DNA from: an uncultured Candidatus Saccharibacteria bacterium
Lineage (GTDB): Bacteria > Patescibacteriota > WWE3 > 2-01-FULL-39-13
Length of the DNA: 60,486 nt
Reading direction: 5' to 3'
NCBI GenBank assembly: GCA_964510925.1
Contig: CAZEDS010000002.1
Span: 32,482-92,967, forward strand
The notes under the pieces were generated by a model. The model saw nothing but the letters and a program-made list of their open reading frames with translations. It was not told where the DNA came from and searched no databases. The position numbers and the translations under genes are program-made. Below are positions 36,516 through 44,014 of the stretch, in pieces. Each line of letters begins with the position of its first letter. Position 1 is the first letter of the stretch.

Positions 36516-36583
36516 TGGCTATCCAAGTTGGACTTGAACCACCGACACTCCCGATTAAAAATCGGGATGCTCTAACCACTGAG
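36516..36583 (-). pseudogene. 5'-truncated degenerate tRNA-Lys(UUU) copy
   Basis: CTCAGTGGTTAGAGCATCCCGATTTTTAATCGGGAGTGTCGGTGGTTCAAGTCCAACTTGGATAGCCA; lacks the 5' acceptor strand. Confidence 0.75.
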
Positions 36584-36604
36584 TATATTTGTGAATTTAA
36601 AAAA

Positions 36605-36680
36605 TGGTGATCCAGGGTGGACTTGAACCACCGACACCCTGCTTAAAAGGCAGGTGCTCTAACCACTGAGCTACTGGACC
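36605..36680 (-). tRNA. trnK: tRNA-Lys(UUU)
   Basis: 76 nt; acceptor GGTCCAG/CTGGATC, anticodon arm CCTGC-CTTTTAA-GCAGG, GTTCAAG T-loop, encoded CCA. Confidence 0.95.
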
Positions 36681-36681
36681 A

Positions 36682-36930
36682 TTAATAAGGTCTTTCGATT
36701 AGCTTTTGAATATATTTGTGGCTTTTATAACGCTTGATTTCCTTTTCACGTTTTAGTGCCAACGACTTTGTTTCAAAAGTTTCGAAATATATTAAATCTA
36801 CAGGCAATATAGAGCTAGTATACTTCGATCTTCCATGTTTGTGGCGGTTTATTCGATCTTCTAGATTCGATGTGTATCCGATATAGAATTTGTCGAACTT
36901 TTCACTTTTTAAAATATAAACGTAAAACAT
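36682..36930 (-). CDS. Small GIY-YIG nuclease
   Basis: YVYIL..KFYIGYTSNLEDRINRH..G.SKYT..ALKREKEIK; stop codon lies 1 nt before the tRNA. Confidence 0.9.
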   Translation of the reverse strand: MFYVYILKSEKFDKFYIGYTSNLEDRINRHKHGRSKYTSSILPVDLIYFETFETKSLALKREKEIKRYKSHKYIQKLIERPY

Positions 36931-36945
36931 TTATATTGCTAATTT

Positions 36946-37001
36946 ACCACCGACACTTCCGATTAAAAATCGGAATGCTCTAACCACTGAGCTACTGGAC
37001 C
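36946..37001 (-). pseudogene. 3'-truncated tRNA-Lys(UUU) copy
   Basis: GGTCCAGTAGCTCAGTGGTTAGAGCATTCCGATTTTTAATCGGAAGTGTCGGTGGT; stops at the T-loop. Confidence 0.8.
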
Positions 37002-37155: not shown

Positions 37156-38274
37156 ATGTCTGAGCAATTTCCAATTGAATCCGATTTATCGGAACAAGGT
37201 CAATATCAATATCCATATATCGAATTTAATAGCGGATCGTTTGTTGATGGATTAGCTGCGATTGAAGGTGCTGCTGGATTTGTTGAATTATCTACAAAAC
37301 GGACAACTCAAGCTTTTTATAAAATTCGTGAATCTCTTGCGAAAAACCTACACAAACAAGGGATAAAAGATCCACAAATTGGTTTGAGCGTTTTGGGTAG
37401 CCGTTTGTTTGAGCCTAATTATGCAATGGGTTGGACTACGTTTATGCGTGACGGTAATTCATTAGTACCAACAAGTTTTGATATGCCAGATATATCAACT
37501 CTTGGTGATTTAGCTAGTTCTTCAGTTAAAACGGCATCAAATTTTCCACGAGATGGTATGAGTACAATTGGAAACTTAGCTAAAACCTTAGGTTGGCATT
37601 TGCTTTGTGTTAAAGATCAGGAAGAACAATCAGCGATGTTGAATAATACTTTGTTGCATTGGCATGATATTGGAAACGCCATTCATCGAATGCGTTTTGG
37701 TATTAGGGTTCATTCTGAGCAAATTAGTAAGTCGCCACAATTATTAACTGAAATTTATGATGGTTTGAATCGTAATCAATTATTGAAGAAAGCATACTTA
37801 TCCGTCGAAATTTCACATTGGATGCAAAGTCCAAGCGAATGGATTGAGTTTGTAAAAACTATTCAAAGAGATAAGCCATATTTAAAAGTTGTTGCTTCTG
37901 GTGATATTTCACATGTTCAGCAAAGTATGGATAGCCGCAATATGGATGGAACAGCATTTGAGACTCTTCGCAGAATTATGGAAGATCCTAGCGCACCAGA
38001 GTTTTCAGGTATTGAACTACATAGCTGGGACGGAAATAGCGAACATGCACATGGCAGTTTGCAAGAACTTAATCCAAATGGTTTATCAGATTTATTTTTA
38101 GCCTATGGAGCTTCGGCTGCACGTAAATCTCAGGCTGTAATCAGGGTCCCAAGCAATGCAATTATTGAGACAGCACCTCTAAGTGAAACTAAGTTCTTAG
38201 GAATTCCTCAAGGTGCATCATGGTTAATGCATAATGTTATGAATCCTTACCGCAGAGGTTTTAAGGGTAAGTAA
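37156..38274 (+). CDS. Hypothetical protein, possible xylose-isomerase-like/AP-endonuclease-2 TIM barrel
   Basis: Order of possible metal ligands SVEISH, GDISH, ELHSWD, HGS, IIE fits that fold. Confidence 0.5.
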   Translation: MSEQFPIESDLSEQGQYQYPYIEFNSGSFVDGLAAIEGAAGFVELSTKRTTQAFYKIRESLAKNLHKQGIKDPQIGLSVLGSRLFEPNYAMGWTTFMRDGNSLVPTSFDMPDISTLGDLASSSVKTASNFPRDGMSTIGNLAKTLGWHLLCVKDQEEQSAMLNNTLLHWHDIGNAIHRMRFGIRVHSEQISKSPQLLTEIYDGLNRNQLLKKAYLSVEISHWMQSPSEWIEFVKTIQRDKPYLKVVASGDISHVQQSMDSRNMDGTAFETLRRIMEDPSAPEFSGIELHSWDGNSEHAHGSLQELNPNGLSDLFLAYGASAARKSQAVIRVPSNAIIETAPLSETKFLGIPQGASWLMHNVMNPYRRGFKGK

Positions 38275-38457: not shown

Positions 38458-38916
38458 TTATTGATATCCGGTGAATACGTAGTTTTTGGGGTCGTTTGCA
38501 CCTGAGGTTGTTGCTCCCCAGCTCGATTTCATCGAGACTGTGTAGAAGCATTCTTCCTGTGGATGCCAAAGGCCAACTGCGGGGATTCTGTCGATGTTTT
38601 CCCAGTTTAAAGGGTAGTAATCACCCTTAAATCTGAGATACATCGGTTGAGGACTATTGCAGTCGACGGCTGCAGACCAGATGTTCCAGTCCCCGAACAG
38701 AAAACAATTTTTGCAGTCTTTCCCATCGATTTCCCACCATGTTACGGTTGGCATGGGGGTGGGTGTGATTACAATTGGCGTTGGGATCGAGGCCGGATCC
38801 AAACTTGAAACCAGCGGTAACCAAATGTTGTTATCTTGTGCCAAACAGGCTTTGTAGACTAGAAACGAAATCAACATTGCCACTACAGACAAAATTACTT
38901 TTTTGAATTTTCTCAT
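38458..38916 (-). CDS. Secreted hypothetical protein, GC-richer than its flanks
   Basis: AAGGAG SD before ATG 38916; signal peptide, IWLPLV motif, PT linker, Trp/Cys-rich domain. Confidence 0.7.
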   Translation of the reverse strand: MRKFKKVILSVVAMLISFLVYKACLAQDNNIWLPLVSSLDPASIPTPIVITPTPMPTVTWWEIDGKDCKNCFLFGDWNIWSAAVDCNSPQPMYLRFKGDYYPLNWENIDRIPAVGLWHPQEECFYTVSMKSSWGATTSGANDPKNYVFTGYQ

Positions 38917-38998
38917 TTTTTTCTCCTTATTCCGCCGCTTTTTGCTGTCTTGGCGTGTGTTTTTTAAAAGTAGCAGTCTTAACCTATAATGAGTTAAA

Positions 38999-40084
38999 AT
39001 GATGGGACAAATGCACGATTTCAACCCTAAAATTACAAAAATCCAAAATGTGTTGGGCGATTCTGTGCCTAGGTTTCGTTTGGATCAGATCGCTGAGGCG
39101 ATTTACAAAAAACATATATCTAAGTTTTCGGATATTAGTACCTTGCCTATTTTTTCTAGAGAAAAACTAGAAGAAACCGTTGGCGATACGTTATCTTTGA
39201 CCATTGCACGTGAATCTATTGGTCAGCAATCTCACAAGGTTTTGTTTTCTACTAAAGAAGGAGATCAAAAGATTGAAGCCGTGCGAATGACTTATTTGCC
39301 GAATGCCAATAGAAAACATGTTCATTATTCATTGTGTGTTTCGAGCCAGTCGGGTTGTGCATTGGGTTGTACATTTTGTGCGACTGGTGCAGTTGGTTTC
39401 AAAAAAAATCTTACGGCCGAAGAAATCACTGACCAAGTTTTGTATTTTTTACAAAAGGGTTTGCCAATCGATAGCATTGTTTTTATGGGAATGGGAGAAC
39501 CGTTTTCGAATCCGCATCTTTTTGATGCATTAAAAATTTTAACGCATGAAGATTTTTTTGCGATGAGCCCAAGGCGGATTAGTGTTTCGACGGTTGGAAT
39601 TATTCCTGGTATTGAGAGATTGATTAAAGAATATCCGCAGATGAATTTGGCTTTTTCGCTTCACTCGCCTTTTAATGAAGAGCGTTTATCGATCATGCCG
39701 GTTAATCAATCTTATCCGATAGAATCTGTAATGCAGACGATTAATAAATATGTTGTCGAAACAAATAATCGTGTTTTTATTGCTTATATTTTATTAAAAG
39801 GCGTTAATGATTCTCCAAAACATGCAGAAGCTCTTGCTGATCTTATAAAAGGACAAGGTTCAAAGAGTTATCTTTATCATGTTAATTTGATTAGATTTCA
39901 TCCAGGTTCAACTTTAGAAACTTATCAAAAACCTGAAGATTCCTCCGTGAATAAATTTATGTCAATCTTGACTAATCATGGTGTTAAAAATACTTTGCGA
40001 CAAAGTTTTGGTTTAGACATTGATGGTGCTTGCGGGCAACTTTATGGAGAGTATGAATCCAAAAATAAAAAGGTTATAGACTGA
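38999..40084 (+). CDS. cfr: Cfr-like (RlmN/Cfr family) radical-SAM 23S rRNA A2503 methyltransferase
   Basis: CALGCTFC, FMGMGE, SLHSP, ACGQL; Cfr-type segments KKNLTAEEITDQVLYF, SPRRISVSTVGIIP, YHVNLIR, FGLDIDGACGQLYG. Family certain; clade judged by eye. Confidence 0.75.
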   Translation: MMGQMHDFNPKITKIQNVLGDSVPRFRLDQIAEAIYKKHISKFSDISTLPIFSREKLEETVGDTLSLTIARESIGQQSHKVLFSTKEGDQKIEAVRMTYLPNANRKHVHYSLCVSSQSGCALGCTFCATGAVGFKKNLTAEEITDQVLYFLQKGLPIDSIVFMGMGEPFSNPHLFDALKILTHEDFFAMSPRRISVSTVGIIPGIERLIKEYPQMNLAFSLHSPFNEERLSIMPVNQSYPIESVMQTINKYVVETNNRVFIAYILLKGVNDSPKHAEALADLIKGQGSKSYLYHVNLIRFHPGSTLETYQKPEDSSVNKFMSILTNHGVKNTLRQSFGLDIDGACGQLYGEYESKNKKVID

Positions 40085-43939: not shown

Positions 43940-44014
43940 GGCCCTATCGTCTATCGGTTAGGACAGCAGGTTTTCATCCTGTAAAGCGGGGTTCGATTCC
44001 CCGTAGGGTCACCA
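43940..44014 (+). tRNA. trnE: tRNA-Glu(UUC)
   Basis: 75 nt; acceptor GGCCCTA/TAGGGTC, anticodon arm GCAGG-TTTTCAT-CCTGT, GTTCGAT T-loop, encoded CCA. Confidence 0.95.

What the first reader, a model, noticed from the sequence alone, without database searches (positions are those of the whole stretch)
38999..40084. Cfr-clade rRNA methyltransferase in a CPR chromosome
Beyond the shared RlmN/Cfr motifs, long stretches match my recollection of staphylococcal Cfr (KKNLTxxEITDQVLYF, ALSPRRLSISTIGIIP, EYPQVNLTFSLHSP, YHVNLIRY, FGIDIDAACGQLYG) better than housekeeping RlmN. Cfr methylates C8 of 23S A2503 and confers PhLOPSA multidrug resistance. A chromosomal, non-mobile-looking copy in an environmental lineage could be a reservoir or an ancestral form.
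Basis: partly seen in the sequence, partly recalled or inferred. Interest (0 to 1): 0.75.

Follow-up and report, generated by a model that had tools for sequence, protein, structure and literature searches.

The report
Cfr-lineage rRNA methyltransferase in CPR bacterium
This ultra-small (CPR) bacterium carries, as its only enzyme of the RlmN/Cfr type, an intact gene from a CPR-specific branch lying next to the Cfr multidrug-resistance methyltransferases; whether it makes the resistance mark (m8A2503) is untested, but the branch bears on where Cfr came from.

Summary
It is closer to Cfr than to RlmN: Cfr(D) 51%, Cfr 47%, Cfr(C) 43% identity, against RlmNs at 31-38%; Cfr HMMs score about 430 bits and the RlmN HMM 279.

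In ML trees it falls in a strongly supported "Cfr superclade" (100/98). It sits in a CPR-specific group, not in the clade of experimentally validated Cfr enzymes. It misses every curated Cfr cut-off and, narrowly, the RlmN cut-off.

It keeps the radical-SAM cysteines and most Cfr-type active-site residues. It replaces W101 with His inside a 6-residue longer loop and Q329 with Ser.

It is the only RlmN/Cfr homologue in this 0.89-Mb genome. In its class, 29 of 134 genomes have the Cfr-like type, about 11 an RlmN-like type, none both, and the rest neither.

Neighbourhoods are not conserved. Copies from one family are not monophyletic (AU p=0.00016). dN/dS against a near-identical strain is 0.04.

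Most likely it is an accessory A2503 methyltransferase exchanged among CPR bacteria. C8 specificity and resistance are plausible but unproven. CPR resistome surveys have already counted "cfr" hits, so this is a new member of a known kind.

The parts
38999..40084 (+). Complete gene for a 361-aa radical-SAM RNA methylsynthase of the Cfr lineage (CPR branch). It is the only RlmN/Cfr homologue in the genome.
   Evidence: ORF. Family and PDB scores. ML trees. Single copy. dN/dS of 0.04 against a 95.6%-identical strain.
38963..38990 (+). Promoter-like site, TTTAAA-16 nt-TATAAT, ending 8 nt before the ATG. It lies in the roughly 80-bp divergent intergenic space. The mRNA would be almost leaderless, with no room for a leader peptide or attenuator.
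   Evidence: Consensus scan (10 of 12 matches); sequence. This is a pattern match only and is not evidence of function.
39356..39379 (+). CX3CX2C motif (C120, C124, C127) that binds the [4Fe-4S] cluster. Equivalent to Cfr C112/C116/C119.
   Evidence: Invariant in all aligned sequences. Pfam PF04055, 63 bits.
39335..39337 (+). C113, equivalent to Cfr C105 and RlmN C118, the cysteine that resolves the enzyme-RNA crosslink.
   Evidence: Invariant column. Role taken from the cryo-EM paper.
40031..40033 (+). C345, equivalent to Cfr C338 and RlmN C355, the cysteine that carries the methyl group.
   Evidence: Invariant column within the GACGQL motif. Role.
39296..39325 (+). Lengthened beta-hairpin loop L100-H109 (LPNANRKHVH). 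It is 6 residues longer than in Cfr and has His109 where Cfr has Trp101 and RlmN has Arg. This is the signature of the CPR branch.
   Evidence: Alignment: H in 46 of 56 CPR-branch rows, W in 24 of 25 classical Cfr rows, R in 38 of 44 RlmN-like rows. Modelled with pLDDT of about 93. W101 inserts into the rRNA U-turn, and W101R abolishes Cfr activity.
39998..40009 (+). R334-Q335-S336-F337, equivalent to Cfr R327-S328-Q329-F330, the C-terminal strand that reads the adenine. Arg and Phe are kept; Ser-Gln is inverted to Gln-Ser.
   Evidence: Q329T shifts Cfr towards mono-methylation and lowers resistance. RQSF also occurs in untested classical-clade members from Ktedonosporobacter, Longimicrobiaceae and Seinonella.

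Best explanation
The gene encodes a working radical-SAM methylsynthase of the Cfr lineage.

Shown:
- The catalytic apparatus is complete: the cluster cysteines C120/C124/C127, the methyl-carrying C345 and the resolving C113.
- The predicted fold is confident and is of the Cfr/RlmN type.
- The gene is under strong purifying selection.
- It is the only RlmN/Cfr homologue in the genome.
- It belongs to a CPR-specific branch that is sister or basal to the classical Cfr clade.

Inferred:
- It uses the known Cfr/RlmN mechanism. A methyl group passes from SAM to the cysteine. A 5'-deoxyadenosyl radical abstracts a hydrogen. [quoted passage not shown] The second cysteine then resolves the crosslink.
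- It acts on A2503 of the cell's own naked 23S rRNA, whose Cfr-contact nucleotides are conserved.
- It most probably methylates C8, possibly also C2 as Cfr does. That would give the host intrinsic protection against antibiotics that bind the peptidyl-transferase centre.
- It behaves as an accessory gene that is gained, lost and exchanged among CPR bacteria, not as a housekeeping gene.
For: Lineage:
- The Cfr superclade has 100/99 and 100/98 support with a stem of about 0.3. It survives the addition of 16 Clostridia paralogues and of representatives from an exhaustive search.
- Cfr HMMs score about 150 bits above the RlmN HMM.

Cfr-type residues kept (Cfr numbering):
- Q76, M95, Y97, S103, D150, S151, S182, R184, R185, N208, H286, N288, T325, R327 and F330.
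- The motifs IAY, LYHVNLIR and QLYGxY.
- R and F at positions 250 and 252, where bulky residues are proposed to exclude tRNA.

Substrate:
- The cell's own 23S rRNA is identical to E. coli at 2498-2506, 2522-2524, 2543, 2565 and 2577-2582. Only G2576U differs.

Functional gene:
- dN/dS is 0.04 (25 synonymous and 4 non-synonymous differences), similar to the neighbouring housekeeping genes.
- The AF2 model has pLDDT 92.4, and its best PDB match is Cfr 9p0p.

Accessory behaviour:
- 316 of 401 sampled Patescibacteria genomes have no homologue at all.
- In the window's class, 29 of 134 have the Cfr-like type, about 11 the RlmN-like type, and none has both.
- No shared neighbours were found in 11 CPR loci.
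- The three copies from the window's own family are not monophyletic (AU p=0.00016).
Against: - No biochemical data exist for any member of the CPR branch.
- The protein lies outside the validated clade and below every curated Cfr cut-off: 431 against 530, 428.5 against 468, and 426 against 550.
- W101 is replaced by His in a longer loop, and Q329 by Ser. Both positions matter in S. aureus Cfr: W101R is inactive, and Q329T loses resistance.
- S153 is Val, as in RlmN, and T210 is Ala.
- A clostridial clade once called 'Cfr-like' (ClCp, C. sporogenes) showed no A2503 methylation. Closeness to Cfr therefore does not guarantee the activity.
- Mutual exclusion with RlmN-like genes could instead mean the two types are functionally equivalent.
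Confidence: 0.5

Rival explanations
1. It is a functional replacement for RlmN. Despite its Cfr-like sequence, it would make m2A2503 (perhaps also m2A37 in tRNA) as the cell's ordinary A2503 modification, with no effect on resistance.
For: - It is the only homologue in the genome.
[quoted passage not shown] Firmicutes that carry a Cfr-clade gene keep RlmN as well.
- Val at the S153 position and Ala at T210 are as in RlmN, and W101 and Q329 are missing.
- The RlmN HMM score is just under its cut-off (279 against 290). One CPR relative, L015, passes it.
- NCBI names some members of the branch RlmN.
Against: - Only 1 of the 10 positions that differ between Cfr and E. coli RlmN near the adenine is of RlmN type. 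Six are of Cfr type.
- Bulky residues at 250, 252 and 325, proposed to clash with tRNA, are kept.
- About 79% of sampled CPR genomes have neither enzyme, so there is no housekeeping requirement to fill.
- The patchy, horizontally exchanged pattern suits an accessory trait.
Confidence: 0.25
2. It methylates another RNA target, or is inactive on A2503, as reported for the clostridial 'Cfr-like' enzymes. The longer His-bearing loop would then reflect a different substrate.
For: - ClCp and the C. sporogenes enzyme, described as the clade closest to Cfr in Firmicutes-only trees, gave no A2503 methylation in vivo or in vitro.
- The loop that inserts into the 2502-2505 U-turn is remodelled across the whole CPR branch.
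Against: - The residues that contact A2503, U2504 and helices 90 and 91 are largely conserved, and the rRNA site is unchanged.
- In 300 Clostridia genomes nothing scored between 284 and 564 bits on the Cfr HMM. The CPR branch scores 415-436, so it is much closer to Cfr than any clostridial paralogue sampled, and those paralogues fall outside the superclade.
- I could not identify ClCp itself among them.
Confidence: 0.2
3. It is a recently acquired mobile cfr gene from Firmicutes, or a binning contaminant.
For: - G+C is slightly raised: the gene is at 35.8% (84th percentile; GC3 at the 96th), and the two upstream hypothetical genes are at 37-45%.
- A tRNA-Lys locus disrupted by a GIY-YIG cassette lies 2 kb upstream.
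Against: - The nearest relatives are all CPR sequences at 53-67% identity; named Cfrs reach at most 51%.
- The same gene in the same context sits on an independent contig from another sample, at 95.6% DNA identity and with a dS comparable to its neighbours.
- It lies on a 93-kb contig among ordinary CPR genes.
- No integrase, transposase or flanking direct repeats were found.
- The GIY-YIG insertion spans only about 36.68-36.98 kb.
Confidence: 0.03

Closest known systems
Cfr, 23S rRNA (adenine2503-C8)-methyltransferase of staphylococci (PDB 9P0P; cryo-EM complex with an 87-nt rRNA fragment)
   Same: 47% identity over 95% of the length. Same fold: Foldseek TM 0.90 normalised to the target. Same cysteines. 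Same N-terminal HhH2 contacts (F/Y24, R25, Q28). Cfr-type residues Q76, Y97, S103, D150, S151, S182, R184, R185, H286, N288, T325, R327 and F330. The longer alpha5/beta6 loop and the LYHVNLIR motif are shared.
   Different: His in a loop 6 residues longer replaces W101. The Ser-Gln pair at 328-329 is inverted to Gln-Ser. S153 is Val and T210 is Ala. It is chromosomal in a CPR genome with no RlmN partner. It scores below the curated Cfr cut-offs. Its function is untested.
Cfr(D) of enterococci, and Cfr(C) of Campylobacter and Clostridioides
   Same: Cfr(D) is the most similar named resistance protein at 51.1% identity; Cfr(C) is at 42.6%. All belong to the same superclade.
   Different: Both are plasmid- or transposon-borne, lie inside the classical clade and pass the NCBIfam cut-offs (Cfr(C) 585 against 530). 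Both keep W101 and Q329.
Chromosomal Cfr-family genes of Bacillales (ClbA/ClbC-type proteins, CipA of Paenibacillus)
   Same: These are chromosomal, environmental, apparently intrinsic copies of the Cfr lineage, and are the accepted 'reservoir' model.
   Different: They are 57-75% identical to Cfr, score 600-640 bits on the Cfr HMMs and sit inside the classical clade. Of hosts with a classical-clade gene, only the two Clostridia genomes (Flavonifractor porci, Tissierella simiarum) were checked here, and both also keep RlmN; Bacillales hosts were not checked.
RlmN (E. coli 3RFA/5HR7; TIGR00048), the dual-specificity m2A2503 / m2A37 methyltransferase
   Same: Same mechanism, fold and target nucleotide. 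33-38% identity. Like RlmN in most bacteria, this is the only copy in the genome.
   Different: The tree separates them with full support. Only one of the ten distinguishing active-site positions is of RlmN type. It has IAY where RlmN has FEY. Its HMM score is below the cut-off, 279 against 290.
Clostridial 'Cfr-like' enzymes (ClCp of C. phytofermentans; the C. sporogenes enzyme)
   Same: They are relatives of Cfr with all catalytic cysteines and an unknown role.
   Different: They were reported to be inactive on A2503 (PMC5062987). The second paralogues I found in Clostridia fall among the RlmNs, far from the CPR branch. I could not confirm that these include ClCp.

Membership tests
Radical SAM superfamily (PF04055) / RlmN-Cfr methylsynthases | CX3CX2C cluster motif plus the two conserved catalytic cysteines (methyl carrier and resolving Cys) | tested here: met
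   C120/C124/C127, C345 and C113 are present and invariant in the alignments. PF04055 scores 63 bits against a cut-off of 29.5.
Cfr family (NCBIfam NF000424, NF011024, TIGR04432) | Score at or above the curated whole-protein cut-off | tested here: not met
   Scores are 431 against 530, 428.5 against 468, and 425.6 against 550. As calibration, Cfr(C), CipA and a ClbC-type protein pass, while five other CPR-branch proteins score 415-436 and fail.
Cfr family | Placement inside the clade that holds the experimentally validated C8-methyltransferases | tested here: not met
   The classical clade (99/98 and 100/94) excludes the window protein, which sits in a CPR group. Both belong to one superclade with 100/98 support.
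Cfr family | Active-site residues whose change to the RlmN residue lowers Cfr activity (Y97, W101, S103, S151, Q329, F330) | tested here: inconclusive
   Four of six are kept: Y99, S111, S159 and F337 in the window protein's numbering. W101 becomes His109 and Q329 becomes Ser336; neither is the E. coli RlmN residue.
Cfr family | Makes m8A2503 and confers PhLOPSA resistance | not testable with these tools
   This needs expression or an in vitro assay with mass spectrometry and MIC measurements.
RlmN (TIGR00048 equivalog) | Score at or above the curated cut-off | tested here: not met
   278.8-279.2 bits against 290. The other RlmN models score far below their cut-offs.
RlmN | Branches with RlmNs and carries RlmN-type residues near the adenine (E. 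coli I109, E111, R114, T116, T171, N172, V174, K345, T346, R347) | tested here: not met
   It is separated from all RlmN-like rows with 100/98 support. Only Val at the V174 position is of RlmN type.
Mobile cfr elements | Association with a plasmid, transposon, IS element or integrase | tested here: not met
   The neighbours are SulP, PGA_cap, an FNR-like reductase, MsrAB and hypothetical proteins. There are no flanking repeats. A 66%-identical homologue lies among PBP, PheST, L20/L35 and IF3 genes.

The most novel reading that the evidence does not exclude
The Cfr lineage arose within CPR/Patescibacteria from a CPR-type RlmN. On this reading, CPR bacteria carry the ancestral, still diversifying pool of C8-methylating enzymes. 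There these enzymes work alone, giving m8A2503 as the only A2503 mark and intrinsic PhLOPSA-type resistance. The classical Cfr family of Firmicutes, and hence clinical cfr, would descend from a transfer out of this pool.
Probability: 0.25. Interest if true: 0.75.

Novelty: new member of a known kind. Interest (0 to 1): 0.45.

Why it matters
Cfr is one of the most worrying transferable resistance enzymes, and papers up to 2026 still call its origin unclear. Earlier phylogenies used Firmicutes only, and one concluded that Cfr did not come from Firmicutes RlmN.

The window gene represents a large, untested CPR branch. In my trees this branch is sister or basal to classical Cfr, and its nearest RlmN-type relatives are also CPR.

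If these enzymes make m8A2503, CPR bacteria would be a big, overlooked environmental pool of Cfr-type resistance and a candidate cradle of the family. They would also show cells living with m8A2503 and without m2A2503.

If instead they make m2A, the branch gives natural sequence intermediates for working out what sets C2 against C8 specificity. Either outcome can be tested with established assays.

For annotation, the case shows that public pipelines disagree on these proteins: IMG calls them C8-methyltransferases, while NCBI calls them RlmN or plain radical SAM proteins.

Tried and rejected
- **Synteny as a test of insertion.** None of the window's neighbours within about 12 kb recurs near the Cfr-like gene in 10 other CPR genomes, and those loci share no neighbours with each other. 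Of the flanking genes, only PGA_cap has orthologues in family relatives, and nothing else around it is syntenic. These genomes are too diverged for an empty-site test.
- **Island boundaries.** No direct repeats flank the gene. The split tRNA-Lys upstream is explained by a roughly 294-bp GIY-YIG cassette that does not reach the gene.
- **Placing the inactive clostridial 'Cfr-like' clade (ClCp).** A scan of 300 Clostridia genomes and five genomes with two paralogues gave only RlmN-type sequences outside the superclade. I could not tell which of these, if any, is ClCp.
- **Naming clade members.** Three cluster look-ups returned almost no names.
- **Structure comparison.** The model is confident, but Foldseek does not separate Cfr from RlmN (TM 0.77-0.90 for both).
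- **Nestedness of classical Cfr inside CPR lineages.** The ML tree shows it, but an AU test does not reject a simple sister relation (p=0.33).
- **First family search.** It failed on accession syntax.

Full report
**1.
- Window 38999-40084 (+) is an uninterrupted 361-codon ORF.
- Pfam sees a radical SAM domain.
- The protein is measurably nearer to Cfr than to RlmN. Against PDB sequences it scores 345 bits for Cfr, 211 for the RlmN-like 6fz6 and 170 for E. coli RlmN. Against NCBIfam, the Cfr models score 426-431 bits and the RlmN model 279. By tblastn against plasmids, Cfr(D) is 51.1% identical, Cfr 47.5%, Cfr(C) 42.6% and annotated RlmNs 31-38%.
- The host genome has 892 kb in 45 contigs, is 97% complete and has 33% G+C. 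Its relatives are small Patescibacteria genomes.
- I could not name its class. Relatives carry the labels WWE3, 'Saccharibacteria' and Microgenomates.

**2. Position in the family.** I built ML trees (LG+C20 PMSF) from these sources:
- Cfr, Cfr(C) and Cfr(D), taken from plasmids.
- Named chromosomal Cfr-family proteins of Bacillales and other phyla.
- RlmNs of E. coli, S. aureus, Listeria, Pseudoalteromonas, Rhizobium, Fusobacterium, Nocardia and Nonomuraea.
- Clostridia homologues: 13 in the final tree, 16 in the quick tree.
- CPR homologues from three searches.
- Cluster representatives from an exhaustive HMMER search of 1.84 billion proteins.

The trees show the following:
- In every tree a 'Cfr superclade' is recovered with a long stem: 100/99, SH-aLRT 99-100, and 100/98 with a stem of 0.33.
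- The superclade contains the classical Cfr clade (Cfr, Cfr(C), Cfr(D), Bacillales proteins, CipA; 99/98 and 100/94) and many CPR lineages.
- The window protein sits in a CPR group with three metagenomic proteins at 66-67% identity. It is never inside the classical clade.
- Rooted on RlmNs, the CPR lineages form a basal grade and the classical clade is nested. An AU test does not reject a plain sister relation (p=0.33).
- The closest outgroups are RlmN-like proteins of CPR bacteria: a Moranbacteria and 'Elusimicrobia' MAG pair at 97/94, then a 15-row group made up mostly of Parcubacteria and other CPR sequences.
- Forcing the superclade next to the Firmicutes RlmNs costs 47 log-likelihood units (AU p=0.028).
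- Caveat: the RlmN-like rows from MAGs were chosen by similarity to a CPR query, and several rows have odd composition. The attachment point is therefore suggestive, not settled.

**3. Curated family limits.**
- The window protein and five other CPR-branch proteins score 415-436 bits on the Cfr models, below all three cut-offs (468, 530, 550).
- They score about 279-307 bits on the RlmN model, whose cut-off is 290.
- Cfr(C) passes two of the three Cfr cut-offs (585 and 532 bits); CipA and a ClbC-type protein pass all three.
- This explains why NCBI calls members RlmN, 'radical SAM protein' or hypothetical, while IMG calls them adenine-C8 methyltransferases.
- In 300 Clostridia genomes nothing scores between 284 and 564 bits on the Cfr model. 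The CPR branch fills a gap that is empty in that sample.

**4. Residues.** Two 2025-26 structure papers list the Cfr residues around A2503 and the rRNA, and their RlmN counterparts.
- The window protein keeps Cfr-type Q76, M95, Y97, S103, D150, S151, S182, R184, R185, N208, H286, N288, T325, R327 and F330.
- It also keeps the motifs IAY (RlmN has FEY), LYHVNLIR and QLYGxY, and the longer alpha5/beta6 loop.
- It differs at four places:
  - Cfr W101 is His109, inside a hairpin 6 residues longer (LPNANRKHVH). His occupies this column in 46 of 56 CPR-branch rows, Trp in 24 of 25 classical rows and Arg in 38 of 44 RlmN-like rows.
  - Q329 is Ser, with Gln moved one position back (RQSF). This arrangement is also seen in untested classical members.
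  - S153 is Val, as in RlmN.
  - T210 is Ala.
- W101R abolishes Cfr activity, and Q329T lowers resistance and shifts the product towards mono-methylation. The regiospecificity of the CPR branch therefore cannot be read from sequence.
- The AF2 model is confident (pLDDT 92.4). Its best PDB match is Cfr, with the RlmNs close behind.

**5. Substrate.** The genome's single 23S rRNA gene has the canonical CCUCGAUGUCGGCU. It is identical to E. coli at every nucleotide that contacts Cfr in the cryo-EM complex, except G2576U.

**6. Genomic behaviour.**
- The gene is the only RlmN/Cfr homologue in the assembly. This is shown by an HMM search, a protein search and tblastn with eight queries.
- Among 401 Patescibacteria genomes, 316 have no homologue, about 75 have an RlmN-like one and 8 have a Cfr-like one. 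Seven of those eight are in the window's class.
- In that class of 134 genomes, 29 have the Cfr-like type (25 in one family), about 11 have the RlmN-like type, none has both and 92 have none.
- By contrast, two Firmicutes genomes carrying a classical-clade gene also keep a true RlmN.
- Neighbourhoods are not conserved.
- The three copies in the window's own family fall in three subclades, and their monophyly is rejected (delta lnL 152, AU p=0.00016). I named that group after seeing the tree.
- An independent contig from another sample carries the same gene in the same context at 95.6% DNA identity. dN/dS is 0.04, similar to the neighbouring MsrAB (0.035), the FNR-like gene (0.012) and PGA_cap (0.08).
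- No mobile-element genes or flanking repeats are present.
- G+C is only mildly raised, at the 84th percentile.
- A promoter-like site ends 8 nt before the ATG, and there is no room for an attenuator.

**7. Reading.**
- What is shown: this is an intact, constrained, single-copy enzyme of the Cfr lineage in a CPR chromosome. It belongs to a sizeable CPR branch that behaves as an accessory gene exchanged within the group.
- What is inferred: it methylates A2503 of 23S rRNA, probably at C8, and so protects against antibiotics that bind the peptidyl-transferase centre.
- I put about 0.5 on that full statement.
- About 0.25 goes to an RlmN-like m2A role, which the mutual exclusion with RlmN-like genes suggests.
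- About 0.2 goes to another target or no activity on A2503, as reported for the clostridial 'Cfr-like' enzymes.

**8. Novelty.**
- Two CPR resistome surveys already list 'cfr' hits: 648 in 4,062 genomes, and 1,252 in a later set. Neither separated them from RlmN, built a phylogeny or tested them.
- Recent cfr-family phylogenies do not mention CPR.
- The gene is therefore a new, divergent member of a known kind.
- What is new here is the structure of the family around it, the lack of an RlmN partner and the remodelled W101 loop.

Noticed in passing
window 36516-37001 (minus strand); L116 1-46 and 20-2001: A tRNA-Lys(UUU) gene is split by a cassette of a GIY-YIG nuclease ORF (36682-36930) plus a complete replacement tRNA-Lys. 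The 95%-identical strain contig L116 lacks window 36682-36975, so it appears to be the empty site. This supports a mobile GIY-YIG/tRNA cassette.
   Followed up: partly
window 44015 onward; L116 7193 onward: Similarity to the near-identical strain contig stops exactly at the 3' end of tRNA-Glu (43940-44014). Downstream, L116 encodes a 1137-aa protein instead of the window's gene cluster. The region after tRNA-Glu is therefore a strain-specific island.
   Followed up: partly
window 37156-38274 (+) and 38458-38916 (-): These two hypothetical genes lie just upstream of the methyltransferase. Their G+C is unusually high for this genome (37.4% and 45.1%, the 96th and 100th percentiles). The 372-aa protein has no homologue in 11 genomes of the same family, and its dN/dS against the sister strain is 0.46.
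   Followed up: partly
proteins P0270 and P0277: Proteins from the apicomplexans Digyalum oweni and Cardiosporidium cionae (KAF8822641) form a well-supported group inside the Cfr superclade, nearer to classical Cfr than to any RlmN. They could be organelle-targeted enzymes, or contamination from a symbiont.
   Followed up: no
L163 (Rhodobacter xanthinilyticus pEJ02) and L164 (Paraclostridium bifermentans plasmid): These plasmid-borne genes are annotated rlmN. They align only from about residue 75-110 of the query, so their N-terminal region does not match, and they group together in the tree away from their hosts' phyla. The Rhodobacter copy sits between TetR and LysR regulator genes on a mobilizable plasmid.
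   Followed up: no
G059, G086, G161, G173: In several Patescibacteria genomes the RlmN-like gene matches in two pieces within one 373-432-aa open frame. This implies an insertion after about residue 150 of the query, downstream of the cluster-binding motif.
   Followed up: no
P0243/P0074, P0038, P0013 against P0002, P0007, P0239: Members of the same CPR branch are named '(adenine2503-C2)-methyltransferase RlmN', 'radical SAM protein' or 'hypothetical' by NCBI, and 'adenine-C8-methyltransferase' by IMG. This is a systematic annotation conflict, explained by scores that fall between the curated cut-offs.
   Followed up: yes
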